Source: Octopus sinensis | Taxonomy: Eukaryota | DNA length: 64,000 nucleotides | Direction of reading: 5' to 3' | Assembly: GCF_006345805.1 (NCBI RefSeq) | Contig: NC_043001.1 | Coordinates: 100,440,001 to 100,504,000, forward strand | Part shown: positions 3,952 through 46,675 of the stretch, piece after piece | Layout of the letters: each line of letters starts with the position of its first letter | Numbering within the stretch: position 1 is the first letter of the stretch | Made by a program: the position numbers and the translations under genes | Notes under the pieces: model-generated | Seen by the model: the letters and a program-made list of their open reading frames with translations, nothing else | Databases searched by the model: none | What the model was told of the DNA's origin: nothing

Positions 3952-4029
3952 GCGGTACATATGTTTCGGGCCTTTATTAGACAGATTTATAACAATGCAT
4001 AATGTATGTCTGTGGCCTTCTTCAGCCGC
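3952..4029 (-). ncRNA. Type I hammerhead ribozyme motif (left arm)
   Basis: Reverse complement of 5116-5193: GCGG-CTGAAGA-AGGCC...GGCCC-GAAAC-ATAT-GTA-CCGC. Confidence 0.75.
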
Positions 4030-5115
4030 GCACAACAGCTTCCACAAGGACATGTGTTACATCAAAAATCTTGGTTGGGGATGCAAATACTCTCATTCGC
4101 GTACGACATAATGCGGCAACAGCATAGAATTGAAGCGTCCATCTCTTTCTTCTCTCAATGTAGAATGAGGAAATTTGGATGTTGAAGTAATGTAAATAAA
4201 TAAATACATATATAGACGTGAAGATGGAGGGGCGAGAATTCAGGACGAAGGATAAAAAATGTATAAAAATTGTAAGTATAGAAAAATATAAAAATGTAGA
4301 GTATAAAGATATAAAGAGATATAAGGAGATATAAAGGGGATATAAAGAATATAAAGAAATATAAATGAATGTAAAGGCATAAGGTTATAAAGTAAAAATA
4401 GAAATAGAAATAAAAGTAAAAAGTAAAAAAATAAAAATAGGAATAAAAATGATAAAAATGATAAAAATGTAAAAAAAATATAAAGATAAGGGATGTATAG
4501 AGGTTACGGACCAAACATGGTGGTCAGGAGGTTGATAAAATTTAGTTGTAGAAGCTTTGGGTGTCAATAAATCAACAGGGTCGTCTGGGGACCTAGTGTG
4601 TTGTAAATCAGAGCTGCCTGACCACCATGTTTGGTCCATAACCTCTATACATCCCTTATCTTTATATTTTTTTTACATTTTTATCATTTTTATCATTTTT
4701 ATTCCTATTTTATTTTTTACTTTTACTTTTATTTCTATTTCTATTTTTACTTTATAACCTTATGCCTTTACATTCATTTATATTTCTTTATATTCTTTAT
4801 ATCCCCTTTATATCTCCTTATATCTCTTTATATCTTTATACTCTACATTTTTATATTTTTCTATACTTACAATTTTTATACATTTTTTATCCTTCGTCCT
4901 GAATTCTCGCCCCTCCATCTTCACGTCTATATATGTATTTATTTATTTACATTACTTCAACATCCAAATTTCCTCATTCTACATTGAGAGAAGAAAGAGA
5001 TGGACGCTTCAATTCTATGCTGTTGCCGCATTATGTCGTACGCGAATGAGAGGATTTGCATCCCCAACCAGAATTTTTGATGATGTAACACATGTCCTTG
5101 TGGAAGCTGTTGTGC

Positions 5116-5193
5116 GCGGCTGAAGAAGGCCACAGACATACATTATGCATTGTTATAAATCTGTCTAATAAAGGCCCGAAACATATGTACCGC
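5116..5193 (+). ncRNA. Type I hammerhead ribozyme motif (right arm)
   Basis: Stem I GCGG/CCGC, core CTGAAGA, stem II GGCC/GGCC extended by ACAGA/TCTGT, GAAAC, palindromic helix III ACATATGT, and GUA cleavage triplet at 5187-5189. Confidence 0.75.
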
Positions 5194-17978: not shown

Positions 17979-18532
17979 CCCTGATGCAGTACCAGGCAGT
18001 GGCTCTCATGGCTTCTGATCTTAACTGATTGGAAGTGTTATCATGTACATTGTTTTGTCTTGGTATAAAAGATGGGCTACAGCAAATATTCTGCTCAATA
18101 CCACAGATTTGCTTGTCAGTTGTTTAACCTTAACCAGTTGAGCATGTCCCTTAGTGGCTGACGATATGTGCATCTCTGATCACGAGCAGAAGTAGTGGGG
18201 GAGCATCATAGCCATGTGTTGAGAGGGATTCTTTGCGGTTTGAATAATTCACCTCTGGAAACATGGGTGGTTCTTTCAACATCCTTAAATAACCCTTATT
18301 TAGGGACCATTTTGAGCGGGATGGGCTACTCAACCTGAAGAAATTTTGAACTGGGCCCCACCTGCAAGGTCATGTGCTGTTTATCTTGATATGAGATCAC
18401 CATGTCGCGCACGTATGGTTGTGATGCATGTGCCTGGTGTACCCTTATCAGATGGGTAGTCATGATGGGTATATTGGGCTTTGTATATTTTACCCCAGTG
18501 TCACTTTGATGGCATGAACTGCTCTCTCACTC
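17978..18532. mobile_element. Non-coding 555-bp insert bounded by (AAT)n on both sides; probable non-autonomous (TAA)n-targeting element
   Basis: Sharp transitions to (AAT)n at both ends, higher GC than the flanks, no meaningful ORF, and embedded among Dong-like elements. Confidence 0.5.
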
Positions 18533-18551
18533 AATAATAATAATAATAATA

Positions 18552-19935
18552 GTTCCAGTTGTTACTTATAGCTACAATGTGTTGAACTGGAATATGAGTG
18601 AAGTAAAGAATATAGATAGAAAAATACGCAAGCTGCTGAGTTGTAATAGGATGCACCACCCAAAGGCAGACGTAGATCGCCTTTACCTTCCCAGAGCCCA
18701 AGGAGGTCGAGGCCTGATCCAATTTGAACTAGCTTACAAAACAACCACAATTGGACTGGCCAAATATCTCAAAATATCGAATGACTGGATGCTAAAGCTC
18801 GTGGAAAATCACGAGAGACGAAAGAAGCTTCATTCTATCATAAAAGAAAGCAAAAAATTTGCTATTGATCTCATGCAGGATACCCAAACTGAACAACCCG
18901 AGGGAAGTACGGCAACTATTGTTGCAAAGAAGGTGAAAATGATGGCAATGAAGAAAGCGCACAAGCAATTGGCTGATAGGTGGGAGGAGAAACCTCTGCA
19001 TGGCAAATATGTGACCCGCAGCAAACAAGCTGATGTTGACCAGAAGCAAACCCATCAGTGGCTACGGAGCTCAGGGCTAAAAGCAGAGAGCGAAGGTTTC
19101 ATCCTGGCTGCTCAAGATCAAAGCCTATTAACCCGGAACTACCAGGCCAATGTGATGAAAAATGGAGCAGACCCAAAATGCCAATTCTGCAACGACATGA
19201 TCGAAACAGTGGACCACCTAATCTCTGGATGTAAAGTCTTAGCACCAGTGGAGTATAAATTAAGACATGACAGAGTTGGCCAATATCTCCACTGGCTAAT
19301 AAGTTGGCATTACAATATCAAAACTGCCGACAAGTGGTATAATCACCACCCTGAGGCTGTAACTGAAGGAGAAAATGTAACCATTTTGTGGGACTTTCCA
19401 GTACATACAGACCGAACCATCAAGGCCAATAAACCAGATATTGTTGTGAAAGACCAAAACAATAAAGTTTGCTTATTGATCGGCATGAGCATCCCCTGTG
19501 ATCATAATATCTCAGCGAAAGAGTTTGACAAGCTCAGAAAATATAAAGGCCTACTCATTGAAATTGAGAAAATGTGGCATCTCAAGGCAGTTACAATACC
19601 AGTGATCGTAGGAGCACTAGGAATGATCAAGAAGGGAACCGAAAATTATATGAGAATGATCCCTGGCTTACCATCCCTGCAAGAAGTGCAAAAGATTGTC
19701 TCAACTGGTACCTCATACGTATTGAGAAGAGCATTGTCGATGTGAGAACTGTTGCTGCTCATGTATTTTAATTTAACTTTAAAAAAAAAAAAAAAAATGA
19801 ACGAACTAGTGAGTTTGGTTTAATGGCCTACCAATGTATACTATGAGTTTCTTTGCCCTAGGAGTCGGGAAGACACTTGGCAAGAAATGGAAGCAAATTT
19901 GAAAGAAGAAAAAAAAAGTAATAATAATAATAATA
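18552..19935 (+). mobile_element. 5'-truncated R4/Dong-clade non-LTR retrotransposon with an uninterrupted C-terminal ORF (18579-19745)
   Basis: HPKADVDRLYLPRAQGGRGL, AAQDQSLLTRNY, CCHC knuckle CQFC..ETVDHLISGC, RHD, and RLE motif WDF...KPDIVV...LIGMSIP...K..KY. 3' UTR ends in an A-rich run plus (TAA)n, and (TAA)n also lies 5'. Confidence 0.92.
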
Positions 19936-19989: not shown

Positions 19990-20775
19990 CAGTCATCTCT
20001 CTTGCACACTACATCTGATGCTTCTTAGGTCCAACTTTTCTCTCAAGGTACTTACACTCTGTTGAGTATGCAAACTGACATTATACATCCATCGGAGCAT
20101 ACTGGCTTCAATCCTTGTGAGCTTACGCATGTCCTCAGCAGTCATGGCCCATGTTTCACTGCCATGTAGCATGGCTGTTCATACACATGCGTTATACAGT
20201 CTACCTTTTACTCTGAGCGAGAGGCCCTTTGTCACCAGCAGAGGTAAGAGCTCTTTGAACTTTGCCCAGGCTATTCTTACTCTAGCAGTTACACTTTCAG
20301 TGCACCCTCCCTGCTACTGACTTGGTCCTCTAGGTAATGGAAGCTATCAACTACTTCTAGTTTTTCTCCCTGGAATGTAACAGAAGTTGTTCTCTGCGCA
20401 TTTTCAGTGTTTATTGCTCCTGAGCATCTGCCACATACAAAAGCTATCTTCCCAGTTAGCCTTCCTTTGATATTGTTGCACTTCTTATGTGTCCATAGCT
20501 TACACTGGGTACATCTTTTAGAGTTTCTACCTAAGCCTTTTCTACAGATCGAGCAGGGCCATCTACCTGAAGGGATTTGTGGTTTGTCTGCCTTCCTACT
20601 TATTAAGACTTTGGTTTTAGCTAGGTTGACTCTAAGGCCCTTCGATTCTAATCCTTGCTTCCACACCTGAAACTTCGCCTCTAGTTTTGATAGTGACTCA
20701 GCAATTAGAGCAAGGTCATCAGCATAGAGGAGCTCCCAGGGGCATCCAGTCTTGAATTCCTCTGTTATTGCCTGC
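19990..20775 (-). mobile_element. RTE-clade LINE RT fragment with a Cys/His-rich insertion
   Basis: GCPWELLYADDLALIAES, GLRVNLAKTKVL, then CSIC..CTQC...H..C...CGRC, LEVVDSFHYL, and further on KGRLYNACV..AMLHGSETWA. Confidence 0.88.
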
Positions 20776-20819
20776 GATGAATTTCTCTGTTATTATCATT
20801 GTTGTTGTTGTTATTCAGT

Positions 20820-21330
20820 TGACATATTTATATTGCATACTATCACTGCACGACCAATCACAACCCTGTGTGGCTTGCATGTATTCAGTGCTTTGTTATT
20901 CTATAACAGACCCTACCACTAAGTATTTGTGGCAGATATAACCTTTCACTATCAGACTTTTCTATTTATTATTTTTCTTGTCTAGTCTAACTTGTTGGTT
21001 TAGTGTCCAGTTGAGAATATTTAAGCAGTAAATTATTACTGGTACAGCTAGAGTATTGATGCCTATTACCTTATTTTTTGCATATGCCTCTGTTTTAAGT
21101 ATTATAATCTTTTCTTTAATGTATGTGTGTAGTGACTGTGTAGTTTATTGCTTCCTAAGCATTTCTCTGTCTAATTCTCTTATTTCACTTTCTTTATCTT
21201 GTGTGGTATTAGTTTTCTTAATTAATTCTTCTCTCTTCAAAGTCACTTTGGTGCATTTTTCTAAGCTGACTCTTATATTTCTTTCTTTGATAAATCTATG
21301 TTCTGCCTGTAGTAATATGTTTCAAGTTAC
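20820..21330 (-). mobile_element. Decayed R4/Dong-type fragment
   Basis: Minus strand gives ILKTEAYAKNKVIGINTLAVPVIIYCLNILNW, homologous to the region just upstream of the 18579 ORF. Confidence 0.6.
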
Positions 21331-21439
21331 TTAGAGCTTGCAACAGACAACTAGAGGTCGTCCATACATAAAAGTTGGTTAATTGTCTTGCTTCATTATT
21401 ATCATTATTACTATTATTTCATATACGCACAACAGATTG

Positions 21440-21562
21440 AACCGTTGGAAAAGAAAAATTCTTAACATTGGTCTACAACAAGTAACCTTCAATCCCAAGA
21501 ACCTTCCTACGTATCCTAGCTGTCCCAAATAACACTGTCTTCTGGAGCTGCACTAAACTGGG
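21440..21562 (-). mobile_element. RLE element extreme 3' end fragment
   Basis: Minus strand gives LVQLQKTVLFGTARIRRKVLG, the typical terminal peptide of these ORFs. Confidence 0.6.
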
Positions 21563-21566
<4 letters not shown>

Positions 21567-21618
<52 letters not shown>

Positions 21619-21680
21619 TATTATTATTATAATAATAATAATAATTATTATTATTATTATTATTTATTATTATTATTATT

Positions 21681-21756
<76 letters not shown>

Positions 21757-21760
21757 CATT
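21567..21760. repeat. (TTA)n microsatellite
   Basis: Directly visible. It abuts the 3' end of the element at 21761. Confidence 0.95.
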
Positions 21761-24095
21761 ACCTTTGCACAGCTTCTAACACTGGAGATGTACTACAGTG
21801 TCACCTGTTCTCTACCAGTGAACTAAGGTAACACTTCTTATTTTTCGAGCACCTTCTGAAGTATTCGGGTGATTCCAAGCAGTACTGTTTTCTGCAAGTG
21901 CTCCACCCTTATTGCAGCCCCTATTTGTTCCATGTACTTCTCAAGACTTTTGCTCACTGTTCAAATTGCTCCGACAATCATTGGTACTACTGCTACCTTT
22001 TTCATCGACCACAACTGCTTAACTTCCCAAGCTAACCTGTCATATCTCTCAACTTTACTTTCTTCCTTATCACATACCTTGTTGTCAGCTGGGCATGCTA
22101 TGTCTATGATCCAGCATAGCTTGTTTTCTTTCTCAATTAAGACTATGTCCGACTTCCTATTCTCTATCTCATGGTCGCACTGAATCATAAAATCCCACAG
22201 GATCTTTGCATTTCTATTTTCGACGATGCCTTCAGGTTTGTGGCCATACCAATTTTTTGCTCTGTCAAGTCCATACTTGTTGCAGAGTGTCCAATGGACA
22301 ATCCTTGCTATATTGTCATGACATCTCTTATATTCCTTCTGGGCTAGAGGCATACATTGGCTGGTAATATGCCATATGGTTTCACCATTTTGCCCACAGA
22401 TTCTACACATATCACTTTCTGATGTGTTGTCTATTCTGTATTTTATGTAGTTTGTTCTTAGCGCTTGCTCTTGGGCAGCACAGATTAGAGCCTCCGTTTC
22501 CGGTTTTAAATCACTTTTAGTCATCCACAGCCATCTTTTTACTCCGTCTGTCTTATCTTCAACATCCCTATGAAATTGACCATGCATTCTTTTCTTTATC
22601 CACCTATTTTCAGTTTCATCCATCCTCAAGTGCTTGTACAGTGCTTTATCTTTGTAATCTTTCAGCCTACACAAGCCTGACCTTTCTACCTCTAAAAATA
22701 GCAGTTCTGTGGCATTTTTTACATTCCATGTTATGTTGTTTTCTCCTGCTCTAATGCTGTGGTCACATCCAATAAGTCCTCTTCCCCCTCTTTTTCTTGG
22801 TACATACAGTCTGTCTGCATCACTTTTTGGGTGGAGTGTCCCATATCTTGTTAGCAACTTCCTTGTCTTTCTAAGCTGTTTAGTTTGTCTACTGTCCATG
22901 CAATTACTCCTGCTCCATATCTAAGGAGTGAAACTGCCCAGGTGCTGATAGCTTTGATCTTATTTCGTCTGTTTAATTTCAAATTAAGGATCAGTCTCAG
23001 TCAGTGCAAGTACTCCACATTAAATTATTCTGACATTTCTTTCTCCATCAATTTATCCATTTCCAAAATCCCCAAGTACTTATAGCCTGTCTCTTCTATC
23101 TGCTTCATAACCTCCCCCAGTGGTATTGTTAGCCTGTCCATACATTTGATTTTGCCTCTTTTCAATACTAACACACCACACTTTCTCAGTCTGGACTCCA
23201 TTCTGATATCAGCATTGGAAGTATACACCGTATCAATGAGGGAACTGACTTGGACTTCATCTTAACCATATAGTCTGAGGTCATCCATGAATAACAAATG
23301 TGTTGACTTTTTGCTGGTGGCTTTTGAATACATACCCAGCTTTTGCTTTCCTCAGAATCAGTGTTAGTTGTATCAAGCACAGTACAAAGATCAGTGGGGA
23401 CAGGCAGTCCCCATGGAAAATGCCCCTCCTAATTTCTACTGTCCCTAAACTTCTTCCTTATGCTGTCAGGTCCATCCTCCAATTTGCCATACTTTTTCCA
23501 AGCAATTACTCAACATTCGATGCAATACCAAATAGGTTCATACACTCCATAATCCAAGAATGTGGGATCATATCGTACTCCTTAAGATAGTCGATCCATG
23601 ACAAGGTTAAGCTACTTTTCCTCCTCTAGCAGTCTCTGAGTAGAGTTTTATCTATCAGGAGTTGATCCTTGGTACCCCTGCACTTACACTTGCAACCCTT
23701 CTGCTCATGTGGCAGGACTCCATTTCTTTCTAGATGTTCGTACATTGACTCTGCAAGTATTTCAGTTAATAACTTCCACATAAGTGGCAAAAAGGATATT
23801 GACCTGTAATTGTCTACCATATTGCCTTTTTTGATGTCTTTCAGGGGCAGCACTGTCCTACCCATTGTCAACCACTCTGGTGTCATTTGGTCGGTATTTA
23901 ACAAGGTGTTGAGTTGCACTGCTATTTTGATTCAGTAGCCTTGAACTCCATCTGGTCCCAGGGCCTTCCAGCTGCTCATTTTTTTTGCTGATTTCCTTCA
24001 CTTCCCTAACTGAAATGACTAGTTCTGCCTGTTTTGGACAGACTACTGCTTGTTTCAGTTCTTGCAACCATTCAGCATCCTCAACTTTGTATCTC
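21761..24095 (-). mobile_element. R4/Dong-clade non-LTR retrotransposon, 5'-truncated and frameshifted (RT, CCHC, RLE)
   Basis: [32 protein letters not shown]...[53 protein letters not shown]...HITSQC, KSDIVLIEK...IIDIACP. The 3' end abuts (TAA)n. Confidence 0.92.
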
Positions 24096-25777: not shown

Positions 25778-26475
25778 TGTTGTGGTTGAATCTGAACACC
25801 CCTGTGAATGGATGGTTCTAAGTTGTATAAGTATGCATGCATGCTGGAGATACATAAAAACAGTGTGGTATGTACAGACGCCTGTAAAACAGTGGCAGAA
25901 ATCATTTTGGAAGAAATATCGGAATTACGTGTTTGTGAATTGATAGTTGTTAAATGATTCTATCAGAAGTCCACAATCACAGTAAAACACCATAACAATA
26001 ACGACAAGAATTCGAACTACAGACAGGGGAAAATATCAAAACCCCTCTCAGTTTGTAAAAGTGGTGACAAGGATTCTAATTTTACGCACTTCATAATAGT
26101 GAGACATTCAAAGTTCTTAGCATGGAAGAATTGGTAGCCTTCATGATACAGCAGCAACAACAGTTGCAACAGCAACAAGAACAATGGAAACAACAACAAC
26201 AGCAACAGCAAATTCAGCAGTTGTTAGAATTATTGCTGAGGTCAAAGAATATGTCAGGTTTGTTTTTAGTGGATGGAGGAGCTAATTCAATTGAGGAATT
26301 TGTCTATAATCCTGAAGAAGGGATTACGTTTTTGGCATACTATGGAAGGTATGAGGAAATATTTGAGGAAGAATGTAAAAGTTGGACAAATGAAAAGAAG
26401 GCAACTCTTCTTTTACAAAAATTAGCACTCACAGAACACGAAAAAATACTGCAATTTCATCTTGCCAAGGGAACC
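25778..26475 (+). mobile_element. Gypsy-type LTR retrotransposon 5' remnant (possible LTR, PBS, gag N-terminus at 26122-26460)
   Basis: Gag-like SIEEFVYNPEEGITFLAYYGRYEEIFEEECKSWTNEKKATLLLQKL..EHEK after a Q-rich start. PBS-like TGGTGAC at 26062. A TG-initiated candidate LTR from 25778 has uncertain boundaries. Confidence 0.65.
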
Positions 26476-26479
26476 ACCA

Positions 26480-26585
26480 GAAATCTGAGAACCACATTAA
26501 AGGTACGCATGTCTGTGGAGTACTCAACCACTTGCACGCTAATTTCACAAGCTGGAACAATCATTGTCATAACAGATGGAGTGCT
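26480..26585 (+). mobile_element. 3' fragment of SINE family D
   Basis: TGAGAACCAC...CTCAACCACTTGCACGCTAATTTCAC...CTGGAAC...GGAGTGC aligns with 55680-55797. Confidence 0.6.
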
Positions 26586-26619
26586 ATATATATATATGTT
26601 TGTGTATGTGTGCTTGGGA

Positions 26620-27040
26620 AGATCCGTCAGGCCAATTGCAATTGTAGTTGTGGCTGATGCGAGTCTCACATATCTGGCGCCCATGCTAGAGATATGTAAA
26701 AGGCACCTTTTGAACTTTGGGCCTCATGGAATCGGTGACAAGTGATCAAGACTTTTGACAATATACTGTGCTTAAGAAGACTTGTCAAGCCAAGTGAGAT
26801 CTTAGTTGTGGTCAATACCAGTGTTTCATAAATGGCCCTCATACCAGCAGCATATAAAAAGCACTCACTACAGACTTGGAGTGGTTGGCATTAGGAAGGG
26901 TATCCAGCCATAGAAAACCATGCCAAATCAGACTGGAACCTGGTGCAGCTCCCCAGCTTACCAGTTTTCAGTCAAAATGTCCAACCCATGCCAGCATGGA
27001 AAGCAGATGCTAAATGATAAGGATGATGATGATGATGATA
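26620..27040 (+). mobile_element. RTE 3' UTR and tail
   Basis: Longer UTR portion followed by the conserved tail and (GAT)n. Confidence 0.75.
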
Positions 27041-34210: not shown

Positions 34211-34439
34211 TTTACTACTTCCGTCTTTTCAGTATGTGACCTCGTGAAGACGACCTGCAATTTTTTTTCCTCTGTCCTCCCGTCTCGGGATCTTTCTTTC
34301 TTTCTCTTATGTTTCCGACGAAGAGCTCCGCTCGAAACGTCATACCCTCCTTCTTCCATTTTCCTGAGCGCCTAATAATATAATACTGTAATTGTTCCAC
34401 GTGTTGTTGTTTTTTCTGTTTTCCCGTTTGGATTAACCT

Positions 34440-34472: not shown

Positions 34473-34629
34473 TATTATATAAAAGGGCTTAGTAAAATAA
34501 ATTACTTTGCCGCATACATAATTTTACCCTCAATTGTTGAAATCATATATATATATATATATATATAAAGGAGATGATGACAGGCAAAACACCGAACCCA
34601 TCAGGAAGCACAAATACTTAAAATATGTG

Positions 34630-39281: not shown

Positions 39282-39500
39282 GGCAGAGTGCTAGCAGAAA
39301 CATTAGTACATCGGGCAAAATGCTTAGCAGTATTTCATCTGTCTTTATGTTCTGAGTTCAAATTCCGCCGAGGTTGACTTTGCCTTTTTTCTTTTCGAGG
39401 TCGATAAATTAAGAACCAGTTGTGTACTGGGGTTGATCTAATTGACTGGCCCCCACCTCCCCCCAAATTTCAGGCCTTGTGCCTAGAGTAGAATAGAATA
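39282..39500 (+). mobile_element. SINE family B (Meta-domain-like)
   Basis: Same head, core and tail as 6325-6533. Confidence 0.85.
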
Positions 39501-39513
39501 ATGGTAAGTACAA

Positions 39514-40040
39514 AGGCGGTGAGCTGGCAGAAATGTTAGCATGCCGGGCGAAATGCTCAGCGGTATTTCGTCTGCGTTACGTTGTGAGTTCAAATTCCGC
39601 CGAGGTCGACTTTGCCTTCCATCCTTTCGGGGTCGATAAATTAAGTACCAGTTACGCACTGGGGTTGATGTAATCGACTTAATCCGTTTGTCTGTCCTTG
39701 TTTGTCCCCTCTATGTTTAGCCCCTTGTGGGTAGTAAAGAAATAGGTATTTTGTCTGTCTTTATGTTCTGAGTTCAAATTCCGCCGAGGTCGACTTTGCC
39801 TTTCATCCTTTCGGGGTCGATAAATTAAGTACCAGTTACGTACTGGGGTCGATGTAATCGACTTAATCCGTTTGTCTGTCCTTGTTTGTCTCCTCTGTGT
39901 TTAGCCCCTTGTGGGTAGTAAAGAAATAGGTATTTTGTCTGTCTTTATGTTCTGAGTTCAAATTCCGCCGAGGTTGACTTTGCCTTTCATCATTTTGGAG
40001 TCGGTAAATTGAGTACCAGTTGCATACTGGGGTTGATCTA
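39514..40040 (+). mobile_element. SINE family B with internal 184-bp tandem units (about 2.6 copies)
   Basis: One head GGCGGTGAGCTGGCAGAA, then the unit GGTATTT...GAGTTCAAATTCCGCCGAGGTCGAC...GGTAGTAAAGAAATA restarting at 39745 and 39929. Confidence 0.9.
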
Positions 40041-40262
40041 TTGAAAAACCAATCAAGAGGCCAGCAGTTCGCATGCTAATGCTAATAAAATGTTGTGTCC
40101 AAAGCTAAGGAACTTAATTTTCTGCTGGTTCAGTCCATTTGGAGAAAATAGGTGTCACAAGGTGTTTTTACCTTGTGACACTGTAAGCAGCTGAAAGACT
40201 GCAAAATTGACAAGTGATTCAATTAACTTGCAAGGTTGAGTACACATTATCTTGGAGATTTT

Positions 40263-40660
40263 AGGCAGTGAGCTGGTAGAATTGTTAGCACGCCGGCGAA
40301 ATGCATAGCGGTATTTCGTCTGCCGCTACGTTCTGAGTTCAAATTCTGCCAAGGTCGACTTTGCTTTTCATCCTTTTGGGGTCGATTAAATAAGTACCAG
40401 TTATGAACTGGGGTCGATATAATCGACTTAATCTGTTTGTCTGTCCTTGTTTGTCCTCTCTGTGTTTAGCCCCTTGTGGGTAGTAAAGAAATAGGTATTT
40501 CATCTGTCTTTATGTTCTGAGTTCAAATGCTGCTGAGGTCGACGTTGCCTTTCATCTTTCTGGGGTCAATAAATTAAGTACCAGTTGCATTCTGTGGGTG
40601 ATCTAATCGACTGACCCCCTCCCCTAAAATTTCGGGCCTTGTGCCTAGAGGAGAAAAGAT
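40263..40660 (+). mobile_element. SINE family B with two internal units
   Basis: Head, one full unit, then a second unit ending in the terminal tail CTTGTGCCTAGAGGAGAAAAG. Confidence 0.88.
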
Positions 40661-40870: not shown

Positions 40871-40920
40871 ACAGACATGCACACACACACATAAACACAT
40901 TTATACATACATATATATAC

Positions 40921-41300
40921 TAAGTAATTAAGGGTTTAGCAACGATTTGCCTCACCACACACCGAATTTAGAAATAGCAGTCAAAGAGTTATAGCTATTC
41001 TTTCTACTAAAAGGGAGATCTCAGTAAAACCACAGCACTTGAAAGGCAAACACAGACAGGCAAGAGAGAAAGAAATGACGGCAATCTATCATACAATTTT
41101 AAGTCACCTACGGACGTACGTTTCGAAATTAAGTTTTAGGAAAGCATAAGAATTAGATAATTATGTCTTACCCAACTTCTTTTCTCATCAGCGTAGGACA
41201 CTACAATTATGAATAATTGTATATTAAATTTCGAGATACTAGAAAGCATCATCTCAACTCAGTATCAGAGCGAGCTAAAACCGTTACCAGTATCACCAAA
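40921..41300 (-). mobile_element. Penelope-like terminal fragment in (TA)n carrying an intact hammerhead
   Basis: (TA)-rich flanks on both sides. Contains the HHR at 41107-41197. Confidence 0.7.
41107..41197 (-). ncRNA. Type I hammerhead ribozyme, canonical core
   Basis: CCTACG-CTGATGA-GAAA...TTTC-GAAAC-GTAC-GTC-CGTAGG. Perfect 6-bp stem I, G-C closed and extended stem II, palindromic helix III ACGTACGT, GUC triplet. Confidence 0.88.
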
Positions 41301-41320
41301 TATATATATATATATATATA

Positions 41321-41530
41321 ACGGGAAGCTTTATGAAAATAAACAAAAGACGAAGGCAGGTGGAAAACAAACGAACAATTGTATTAGTATGGCGCTCAGG
41401 AAATATAAATAAAACAAGTCTTTAACGTTTCGAGCCTACGCTCTTCAACAGAAAGATACACAGAGAGAGAAAAACACAGAAAGAAGGAGAGAAAAAAAAT
41501 GCGTGCAGTAGCTAACGAATCAACATGGCG
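41321..41530 (-). mobile_element. Second Penelope-like terminal fragment with a minimal hammerhead variant (41419-41456)
   Basis: TCTTT-CTGTTGA-A-GAGC-GTAG-GCTC-GAAAC-GTT-AAAGA. Stems I and II are perfect and helix III is the palindrome AACGTT. The 3' end abuts (TA)n. Confidence 0.68.
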
Positions 41531-43588
41531 ATCTCACTTGCCCAAGGGTCCATGCTGTGGAACTGAACCCATAACCATGAAGTAGGGAAAGGATCTCCTT
41601 CATTCTTGCATTCAGCCTTCTACAGTTTGCTTTGCTTTCTGCTGTTAATAGCAGAATGAAAGAAAGCAAACCTGGTCTTTGGCTCTGATCCTCAGCTTCA
41701 TATCAATGACCGCACACTATACTCTTAGTCTGCATGAACCTAATCAAGCACTGACCTCAAACTATTAAATGGACATTTCCCCTCACTCATTAGGGATTTT
41801 TACTATAATTCTGTGATATTCAAGGAAATTAGTTTTAACTCTTATTCAGTGCCAACAGTTATGATTAGAATACAAATGCCCAAAACAGCTGCATTTGCAT
41901 GTTGTAAGGGAAAAGAATACAAAATGTCTCAAACAAGAATTTTAAAATTGGAAAATTCTGATAAGATACGTTCTTTTTTTTTTTGATTATTGGCTCTTAA
42001 AGCATTATTTTATTTATTCTTGCCTCATCAATATACTTCATTCATTTTTCTTCAAGCAGATTTATTGGAGCACATTTTGAAAACTTGATCCTTATCAGCT
42101 CATCAGGATAACATTTACCTTTGCAAGGTACGTCATTACTGTTAGAAATGTAAACATCAAAATGATTTGAAATGCAAAAAGTGAAAAAAACCTTTTGCAG
42201 AACCAATATCAATATGATTTCTTTTCCAAAATGTTGTGATATAATCTAATATATTTTTACTGTTTAATATTAAAATGAAAAAAAAAATTGAAAAAAGTTT
42301 TTATTTTGATATCCAATCAACAGGTAAATATTAAATCTGCAAGTAACATTTGAACTTGCTTTTATATGATTCCCTACCTTGCAGAATTAGATTTTTTTTT
42401 TTTTTTTTTTTTTATGGAATTGTTACTTTAAACAACAAACAGTTAATTCTTCAAACTTTTCAAGTAATTCTCTTGCTTTCTGCTTTGTTGAAATATTTTT
42501 TTTATAGTATTTTGTTTTCCTTCAGTTCATCTGAGCTGTCACTAAAAGCTGGTCCCTACATTCTTTCCCACGATTATGTGATCAATCACTGTGCCATGTA
42601 TGCATGAACAGCTTACTTAGAACTTCCAGAAGCAGGCAGTTATCATACGCTCTGAGAACATGATTTTTGTGATGTCTTCTTTATATTACAACTGGCCTTC
42701 TCCATCAATATGTCCAAACAGTAGTTGTCTTCCTAACCACTTCAAATAGAGAAATAAGCAGATAAACAAATAGACAATACTGAAAATACATTAAATTCAC
42801 ATTATTCTTGCTAAAGTTATATACTTTCATGAAAACAGAAGCTTGTTTCTCAAATCTCAGGAATCATTGCAAAGTATATTACAAATGAACAACTACTTTC
42901 TAGTGCTCTCTTCATTATTAGAAATGTCACTCTATAAAAAGATTTATGTGGGCTGGAATTGGTAAGTGTTTGATTTTTCTCCAATTTTATCATTCCTGTT
43001 ACTTTTTTTCATTAAGTGAGGTTGTCAGCTTTGCTTAAAAAGTGTCTATCTAGTGGTTTATCTTAGGAAACTGAGACATTCCGTTATTGTGATATTGTTG
43101 TCTAAGAAAACCATGTGAGAAATACAATCTTTTCTGATGAAAATACATCAATTTATACAGAGTAGTCAGAGTTAAAGTGGAGTAGAAAAATACTTTTGTG
43201 AAAAAGATAGATTCCTATAAAATATTCTAGTATAAAGTATAAAAGCAAGGAATGGATTTTAAAAGAATGGATTAGCTTTATCTAAATAAATTATTAAGTG
43301 AAAAAAATCTATAATCACTAGTTCCTCCCTCCCTTCCCAATAAAAGAAAGATTCTTCGAAATCATGATGTAAATGCCATACATGATGATAGCTATCCACT
43401 CACGACCAAGGAAGACCATCACTGACCATTAAGAACATAGTGTACTCAGAAAAAAAGTTTTGCAGACCAAGCTTCCCTCATTCATTACACTGGTGGGGTA
43501 CTTTTGAGCAGCTCACTTGAATTCTGTATAAAAATCAGAAAAAACATACATATATACATACGTATGTACATACATACATACATGTGAA

Positions 43589-46214: not shown

Positions 46215-46447
46215 TATTTCTTTACTACCCACAAGGGGCTAAACACAGAGGGGACAAACAAGGACAGACAAATGGATTAAGTCGATTTTACATCGACCCC
46301 AGTGCGTAGCTGGTACTTAATTTATCGACCCCGAAAGGATGAAAGGCAAAGTTGACCTTGGCGGAATTTGAACTCAGAACGTAATGGCAGACAAAATACG
46401 GCTACGCATGTCGCCCGGCGTGCTAACGTTTCTGCCAGCTCACCGCC
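46215..46447 (-). mobile_element. SINE family B
   Basis: Reverse complement of the head plus one unit. Confidence 0.88.
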
Positions 46448-46675
46448 TTTTTGATATATATAAAGTAGTGTCTGTCATGTATAAGTCAGACAAAGCTTTC
46501 AGTTGAGTCTAATGGCTAAAATCGCCATGTGACCTTCCTTTAGTAGAGAAGGGTTGCTAGCCTTTCTCTTTGATGGCTGACACAGGTGCTTTTGAAATGT
46601 TTGATGAAGAAATTTTCCTTCCCCGTTAAGCTCTCTTCAACATTTTCAAGTACCACTTAAAGAGTAACATGAACA

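What the first reader, a model, noticed from the sequence alone, without database searches (positions are those of the whole stretch)
41107..41197. Textbook hammerhead ribozyme with a long stem II and palindromic helix III
Seen: every core nucleotide is canonical (CUGAUGA, GAAAC, GUC). Stem I is CCTACG/CGTAGG, stem II is GAAA/TTTC extended by AAGTT/AACTT and CATAA/TTATG, helix III is ACGTACGT, and the CpGs are intact. Predicted cleavage lies between 41113 and 41112 on the minus strand. This is the best candidate for an active ribozyme in the window and could cut any minus-strand transcript passing through.
Basis: partly seen in the sequence, partly recalled or inferred. Interest (0 to 1): 0.75.

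Follow-up and report, generated by a model that had tools for sequence, protein, structure and literature searches.

The report
Self-cutting ribozyme in jumping repeat
The hammerhead ribozyme motif is real, but it is one of hundreds of near-identical copies carried by a young protein-free jumping repeat that sits in TA microsatellites and is likely copied by Penelope-type enzymes, and this lone truncated copy is predicted to cut poorly because the motif is built to work in pairs.

Summary
Observation confirmed: an intact type I hammerhead lies on the minus strand at 41197-41107 (GUC, cut 41113/41112); 0 like it in 60 shuffles. It is not a stand-alone ribozyme. It sits in a 385-nt, 5'-truncated solo copy (40917-41301) of a 583-nt non-coding unit with 209 exact-core copies in this 2.7-Gb, probably octopus, genome. 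Copies share a 3' end in (TA)n, variable 5' truncation, inverted 5' arms (33 of 60), head-to-tail arrays and an optional ~100-nt tail: Penelope-like (PLE) insertion marks. At least five sibling families (13,539 clade-motif matches) keep stem I and a self-complementary helix III with changed letters. Helix III has 2 bp in a monomer (P=0.003) but 8 bp between two units (P 0.81-0.97 in a real tandem), so cutting is predicted mainly in tandem transcripts; the long stem II is unconstrained. Intact CpGs fit youth (99.5% identity). No host gene, autonomous partner, cleavage or circular RNA was shown. Verdict: new member of the known metazoan non-LTR retrozymes, with unusually clear PLE-type footprints. 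The scan noted similar families before on other DNA (same and other genomes); this sequence was not in its index.

The parts
40917..41301 (-). 5'-truncated solo copy (unit positions ~200-584) of a 583-nt non-coding hammerhead repeat, family A
   Evidence: BLAST of the window against 30 genomic copies: all share 40917-41301 and no further
41107..41197 (-). Type I hammerhead ribozyme motif
   Evidence: 209 exact-core matches in the genome, control 0
41192..41197 (-). Stem I, 5' strand (pairs with 41107-41112)
   Evidence: 6 of 6 pairs; covaries across sibling families
41185..41191 (-). Core CUGAUGA
   Evidence: sequence; invariant columns in family alignment A2
41125..41184 (-). Stem II with long AU-rich extension (60 nt); length varies about 24-62 nt among sibling families
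   Evidence: substitution rate not below background
41114..41124 (-). Core GAAA and self-complementary helix III ACGUACGU (2 bp in a monomer, 8 bp in a double hammerhead)
41112..41113 (-). Predicted cleavage site after GUC (unit position 388/389)
   Evidence: predicted from hammerhead consensus, not assayed
40917..40985 (-). Clade-conserved 3' end: motif plus hairpin ending ACCCU about 15 nt before the fixed 3' end (likely reverse-transcription start)
   Evidence: alignment and fold of six family representatives; 13,539 genome matches to the clade motif
41300..41320 (.). (TA)n tract at the truncated 5' junction
40905..40919 (.). TA/CATA microsatellite at the 3' junction (insertion target)

Best explanation
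The motif is an intact type I hammerhead inside a truncated solo copy of a young 583-nt protein-free repeat (a non-LTR retrozyme), which likely cuts tandem transcripts into unit-length, probably circular RNAs that a Penelope-like element's enzymes would copy into TA microsatellites. Shown: the motif, the repeat, its tandem arrays, fixed 3' ends in (TA)n, 5' truncation, inverted 5' arms and the optional tail. Predicted: two neighbouring units fold as a double hammerhead through the palindromic helix III, whereas a single unit folds into an inactive form, so this solo copy would cut slowly or only with a partner RNA. Inferred: cut monomers are ligated by a host ligase; a PLE RT-endonuclease nicks (TA)n and starts copying at one of two internal sites about 195 and 300 nt downstream of the cut, each just after a hairpin ending ACCCU, runs through the cut site and sometimes round the unit several times, and often stops early, as it did here.
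For: Repeat family: 41 full-length matches at 98-100% among 40 scored of 2216 candidates; 209 exact-core and 319 exact 3'-end matches, controls 0. Unit of 583 nt, GC 0.36, longest open frame 69 codons, no tRNA-like part. In 60 loci picked by the 3' end: lengths 45-706 nt, 33 with an adjacent inverted arm, 4 longer than one unit. Tail ends at unit 104 (22), 111 (22), 95-100 (18) of 69 tails, matching the two-start-site tail of PLEs (PMC11167929; PMC8557442). Units within one locus differ by 0.7% (median, 50 pairs), between loci by 3.3% (1850 pairs); only 1 of the 112 differences between adjacent units recurs in a second locus, as expected of a unit-length template. Double hammerhead: two copies -46.2 against 2 x -19.0 kcal/mol; in real tandem L013 inter-unit helix III P 0.81-0.97, intra 0.0. 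Helix III stays self-complementary with other letters in all 6 representatives of families A-E and in most further variants. Young TA-associated PLEs with long RT-endonuclease frames exist in the genome.
Against: No autonomous element with the same ends was found: no PLE frame is joined to the clade motif in 276 loci and Neptune-type and Hydra-type PLE loci share no end sequence. Cleavage, transcription and circles are untested; runs that hold the repeat are only guessed to be RNA. 5' ends do not pile up at the cut site (0 of 60; 2 exact cases genome-wide). One PLE study found hammerhead cleavage unnecessary for insertion in vitro (PMC11167929), and 8 of 9 predicted frog retrozyme dimers did not cut in vitro (10.64898/2026.07.22.740005). 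Two of the 6 further variants (L366, L372) have an imperfect palindrome. In array L259 one unit differs from its neighbours by about 3%. Homogeneous arrays could also come from a homogeneous linear multimer.
Confidence: 0.8

Rival explanations
1. The repeat is the pseudo-LTR (tail end) of an autonomous Penelope-like element not yet seen, and the window copy is a plain 5'-truncated insertion of it.
For: All insertion marks are those of PLEs; only 150 of 5029 GIY-YIG candidates were scored and 50 Hydra-type loci of 313 matches examined, so PLE families remain unsampled.
Against: Where a copy extends past one unit it runs into another 583-nt unit, never into coding sequence; no PLE frame is joined to the clade motif in 276 loci; five sibling families have the same closed 540-585-nt unit plan.
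Confidence: 0.07
2. The element moves by PLE enzymes on uncut linear multimeric transcripts with template jumps; the hammerhead is a passenger or has another task, and no circle is needed.
For: 19 of 60 copies run through the cut site and none ends there; hammerhead mutants did not impair PLE insertion in vitro and no RNA ends were seen at the site (PMC11167929).
Against: Core and stem I are about three times less variable than the rest (copies are related, so not independent events); the palindrome is kept through letter changes; differences between adjacent units are not inherited as a set.
Confidence: 0.1
3. One reading: this copy acts as an efficient cis-acting ribozyme that cuts host minus-strand transcripts at this locus.
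For: The core is intact; invertebrate retrozyme monomers with short helix III do cut during transcription (coral 0.8/min, mussel 0.1/min, axolotl 2-bp form 22% in 1 h; PMC7229834).
Against: Solo copy; monomer folds inactive (-19.0 against -15.8 kcal/mol for the active form, helix III P=0.003); insertion is very recent and one of hundreds; no host exon found in 208 frames (exons under 62 codons would be missed).
Confidence: 0.03

Closest known systems
Metazoan non-LTR retrozymes (coral, mussel, axolotl: Cervera and De la Pena 2020, PMC7229834; vertebrates: Li, Clavereau, Pollet, bioRxiv 10.64898/2026.07.22.740005)
   Same: Non-coding, low-GC tandem unit with one type I hammerhead (6-bp helix I, 4-bp base of helix II, short palindromic helix III); monomers, dimers and multimers dispersed in the genome; PLEs present in the same genome.
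   Different: Unit 583 nt (150-450 in the 2020 paper; inside the 51-972 range of the 2026 preprint); stem II extended to 60 nt with no small loop 2; strict (TA)n targets, inverted 5' arms and a two-ended tail, which the parts of those papers read here do not describe; circles and cleavage not shown; no cephalopod in either paper's main text as read.
EN+ Penelope-like elements and their hammerhead-bearing pseudo-LTRs (PMC4209133; PMC8557442; PMC11167929)
   Same: 5' truncation, partial tandems, inverted 5' copy, optional tail from two internal start sites, AT-rich or (TA)n targets, type I hammerhead near the 3' end.
   Different: No RT or GIY-YIG frame; tail about 100-110 nt rather than 30-40; hammerhead is full-sized, not the minimal PLE form; no end similarity to the Neptune-type or Hydra-type elements examined in this genome.
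Rfam hammerhead families
   Same: Core nucleotides and three-helix topology (from established knowledge of the motif).
   Different: No Rfam model matched, even at E<=10.

Membership tests
Type I hammerhead ribozyme | Core CUGANGA, GAAA and NUH triplet | tested here: met
   CUGAUGA, GAAA, GUC
Type I hammerhead ribozyme | Three helices, helix I open; pairing supported by covariation | tested here: met
   Stem I 5-6 of 6 pairs with different letters in 6 of 6 representatives; helix III self-complementary in 6 of 6; further variants
Type I hammerhead ribozyme | Loop 1-loop 2 tertiary contact of canonical motifs | tested here: inconclusive
   Stem II runs on for 60 nt, varies 24-62 nt among families and is not conserved; internal loops could substitute, not testable by folding
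Type I hammerhead ribozyme | Self-cleavage at the triplet | not testable with these tools
   Only folding predictions
Type I hammerhead ribozyme | Match to an Rfam hammerhead model | tested here: not met
   a library gap for long stem II is the likely reason (inference)
Metazoan non-LTR retrozyme | Short tandem units, one type I hammerhead each | tested here: met
   Family arrays of up to about 3.2 direct units at 577-584 spacing; the window copy itself is a solo fragment and would not count as 'active' under the two-unit rule of the 2026 preprint
Metazoan non-LTR retrozyme | Non-coding, GC under 50% | tested here: met
   Longest frame 69 codons; GC 0.36; no tRNA
Metazoan non-LTR retrozyme | No LTR, primer-binding site or polypurine tract | tested here: inconclusive
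   No LTR layout in mapped copies; PBS and PPT not searched
Metazoan non-LTR retrozyme | Expressed as linear and circular unit-length RNA | not testable with these tools
   Only contigs of runs guessed to be RNA were available
Metazoan non-LTR retrozyme | Target-site duplication, when present | tested here: inconclusive
   Both junctions lie in TA repeats
EN+ Penelope-like element (autonomous) | ORF with RT and GIY-YIG endonuclease | tested here: not met
   None in the unit or joined to it in 276 loci
EN+ Penelope-like element (autonomous) | 5' truncation, partial tandem, inverted 5' copy, optional tail | tested here: met
EN+ Penelope-like element (autonomous) | End sequence shared with a coding PLE (pLTR homology) | tested here: not met
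   Profile and BLAST against 47 GIY-YIG loci and 50 Hydra-type loci found only separate insertions; sampling incomplete

The most novel reading that the evidence does not exclude
A cephalopod clade of more than 13,000 retrozyme units is copied from self-cut RNA circles by a Penelope-type enzyme that recognises a repeated RNA hairpin (GGU...ACC-CU, then 15-20 AU-rich bases) rather than shared sequence with its own ends; the two such hairpins per unit explain the two 3' ends. This would be direct genomic evidence, and a ready in vitro substrate, for the still hypothetical link between animal retrozyme circles and PLE enzymes.
Probability: 0.3. Interest if true: 0.6.

Novelty: new member of a known kind. 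Interest (0 to 1): 0.33.

Why it matters
As a single locus it matters little: it is a recent, truncated insertion. As a family it is useful because how animal retrozymes get back into DNA is proposed but unproven (PMC7229834 names PLEs as candidates; the 2026 preprint adds sequence relatedness in frogs). Here young copies carry the full PLE insertion signature, two mapped start sites behind similar hairpins, and a hammerhead whose palindromic helix III is kept through letter changes, so cleavage, circle formation and priming can each be tested with short constructs.

Tried and rejected
Rfam: no hammerhead hit; 128 matches at E<=1 were microsatellite-type hits below gathering score. Partner search: GIY-YIG search (147 matches) gave Neptune-type elements with 775-781-aa frames; a Hydra-type RT motif gave 313 matches; neither shares ends with the unit. 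Naiad elements were not searched. Pile-up of 5' ends at the cut site: not seen (0 of 60); the junction pattern found 3 matches, 2 starting exactly at the cut and 1 an internal deletion, too few to call. Expression: no RNA holder listed; contigs of four runs guessed to be RNA cover 23-27 of 30 bins of a tandem copy, which is not evidence of transcription; the planned control on flanking single-copy DNA was not obtained. Host gene: 208 open frames of 62+ codons gave only RT, zf-RVT, PHD and DUF7083 hits. Alignment A1 had two wrong-strand rows and was replaced by A2. Family B hits ending GTC are mostly one-base-short variants of the commoner GTT form and were not used as a separate type. The 3'-end structure has weak support: RNAalifold covariation term unfavourable (+0.64), though 7 of 35 pairs change on both sides against 3.0 in shuffles (six related sequences, structure derived from them).

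Full report
1. Observation. The minus strand at 41197-41107 reads exactly as described: stem I CCTACG/CGTAGG, CUGAUGA, a 60-nt stem II region closed by GAAA/TTTC, GAAA, ACGUACGU, and GUC with the cut between 41113 and 41112. A descriptor scan gave this site and one weak site in the window; 60 dinucleotide shuffles gave 0.35 loose and 0 strict hits per window. The 106-nt region folds at z -1.6, 8 of 200 shuffles as good, so the case rests on the motif, not on energy. Rfam has no match.

2. What carries it. The window lies in a 2.72-Gb genome rich in microsatellites. That it is an octopus is an inference from earlier scan notes and from the match of a Hydra-PLE motif; it was not tested. A search with 341 nt around the motif gave 41 full-length matches at 98-100% from 40 scored of 2216 candidates. 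All 30 fetched copies share window 40917-41301 and no further. They define a 583-nt unit that occurs head to tail; the window holds unit positions about 200-584, with (TA)n on both sides. The cut is at unit 388/389, about 195 nt before the common 3' end. Exact patterns count 209 intact cores and 319 3' ends, controls 0 (the second pattern misses most ends that run on into a next unit). The unit has GC 0.36, no frame over 69 codons and no tRNA. The window copy differs from its closest copies by 2 of 384 bases, so it is very young, which accounts for the intact CpGs.

3. Insertion anatomy. I fetched 60 loci covering 62 of the first 71 listed 3'-end matches; the 9 left out were long copies already seen. 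Direct lengths ran 45-706 nt: 41 stop before the cut site, 0 at it, 19 pass it, 14 hold a whole hammerhead, 4 exceed one unit; 33 have an inverted arm at the 5' end. Across 129 family loci, 69 tails continue past the first end, mostly to unit 104 (22), 111 (22) or 95-100 (18). Truncation, partial tandems, an inverted 5' copy and an optional tail are the described marks of Penelope-like elements (PMC8557442, passages); the tail was traced to two internal reverse-transcription starts in a lizard PLE (PMC11167929, parts 1-2 of 4). Two copies begin exactly at the cut, which is too few to call an excess.

4. Template. In 28 loci, pieces within a locus differ by 0.7% (median of 50 pairs) and between loci by 3.3% (1850 pairs); the nearest piece is a same-locus mate for 47 of 58. 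Among 45 adjacent direct pairs, 112 differences in 11,453 bases, only one recurs in a second locus and 9 fall on the 31 subfamily-marking sites. This fits one unit-length template read more than once (circle, or jumps on the same kind of RNA). A homogeneous linear multimer is not excluded, and L259 holds one unit 3% off its neighbours.

5. A clade, with covariation. Diverged flanking hits led to sibling families B-E with units of about 540-585 nt, the same 3' end and tail motifs and the same insertion style. A shared motif has 13,539 exact matches, control 0. Stem I changes on both sides (CCUACG/CGUAGG, CCCACG/CGUGGG, ACUGUA/UACAGU, UCUGAG/CUCGGG) and helix III stays self-complementary (ACGUACGU, ACGCGCGU, ACGCGU, ACAGGCUUGU) in 6 of 6 representatives; one search adds ACGGCCGU and ACGUUAACGU, and also two imperfect cases. 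Stem II varies from about 24 to 62 nt. In copies chosen by the 3' end only, core and stem I differ at 11 of 560 bases, the stem II extension at 120 of 1227 and the rest at 330 of 4921 (related copies, not independent events). So the core is under selection in the propagating lineage and the long stem II is not conserved in sequence.

6. How the ribozyme likely works. Alone, the motif's best fold is inactive (-19.0 kcal/mol, core paired with the GUC strand) against -15.8 for the active form; helix III has P 0.003. Two copies fold into a full double hammerhead at -46.2, and in the real tandem L013 the two motifs, 583 nt apart, pair through helix III with P 0.81-0.97. This agrees with the dimer model for metazoan type I motifs (PMC4209133, parts 1-2 of 4). 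Against over-reading: invertebrate retrozyme monomers can cut without a partner, and an axolotl motif with 2 bp plus tetraloop reached 22% in an hour, more as a dimer (PMC7229834, parts 2-4 of 6); 8 of 9 frog dimers did not cut (10.64898/2026.07.22.740005, parts 1-3 of 5). Slow monomer cleavage here is possible.

7. Priming signal (hint). Each of the two 3' ends follows a hairpin opening GGU and ending ACC-CU (unit 566 and 85), and a longer stem spans the first end. On six family representatives 7 of 35 pairs change on both sides against 3.0 in shuffles, but the RNAalifold covariation term is unfavourable and the sample is small.

8. Partner not found. The genome holds young PLEs: Neptune-type (label from the recalled linker motif) with 775-781-aa RT plus GIY-YIG frames and Hydra-type with a 723-aa frame. 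None of 47 plus 50 such loci shares end sequence with the clade, and no PLE frame is joined to the clade motif in 276 loci, some overlapping. Mobilisation by a PLE is therefore inferred from footprints.

9. Host context. Pfam on 208 open frames of the window found only mobile-element-type domains; short exons would be missed, so an intronic position is open. Runs holding the repeat are only guessed to be RNA and give no evidence on expression of this locus.

10. Known or new. It works like, and by the testable features is, a metazoan non-LTR retrozyme; circles and cleavage are untested. Four library searches listed no paper on cephalopod retrozymes; an octopus repeat annotation counts 31 recently active Penelope-like families and never uses the word ribozyme in its main text (PMC13282606, passages). 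This scan has already described similar TA-targeted hammerhead families in this and other genomes; this sequence had no look-alike in its index and no note nearby. Verdict: real motif, ordinary locus, new member of a known kind; interest 0.33, mostly for the family's clear PLE footprints.

Noticed in passing
window 41321-41545 (-): A different common repeat directly across the 5' (TA)n tract carries a minimal hammerhead-like motif with a damaged core (CUGUUGA); the two are independent insertions at one TA tract, a pairing also seen in L006, L022, L024, L030.
   Followed up: partly
window 34481-34545: A 65-nt scrap of sibling family B (inverted 3' end plus tail) inside (TA)n.
   Followed up: partly
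window 34310-34345 (+): Another minimal hammerhead-like motif with a damaged core (CCGACGA) at the end of a repeat running into (TA)n.
   Followed up: no
L064:674-4374 (+), L068: Young PLE family with a 479-codon frame, no Pfam hit, overlapping the start of the 781-codon RT-endonuclease frame, suggesting a two-frame or frameshifted PLE.
   Followed up: partly
L304 (G000:C1:2699200-2703700): Hydra-type PLE with a 723-codon open frame and a minimal hammerhead about 1 kb downstream; the family dominates the 313 motif matches.
   Followed up: partly
L066, L067, L071, L091, L094, L135, L150, L166, L208: Several more unrelated hammerheads with long stem II and short palindromic helix III in flanks, one in a 404-nt tandem (L135): the genome holds many further retrozyme-like families.
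   Followed up: no
window 39314-40612 and 46288-46448: Tandem and dispersed copies of a 184-nt SINE-like repeat.
   Followed up: no
window 4022-5123: Low-complexity purine-rich and pyrimidine-rich tracts that mirror each other, suggesting a fold-back element.
   Followed up: no
window 18510-19742 (+), 20292-22920 (-), 26080-26742 (+): LINE-type RT and zf-RVT fragments facing each other, and a DUF7083 frame.
   Followed up: no
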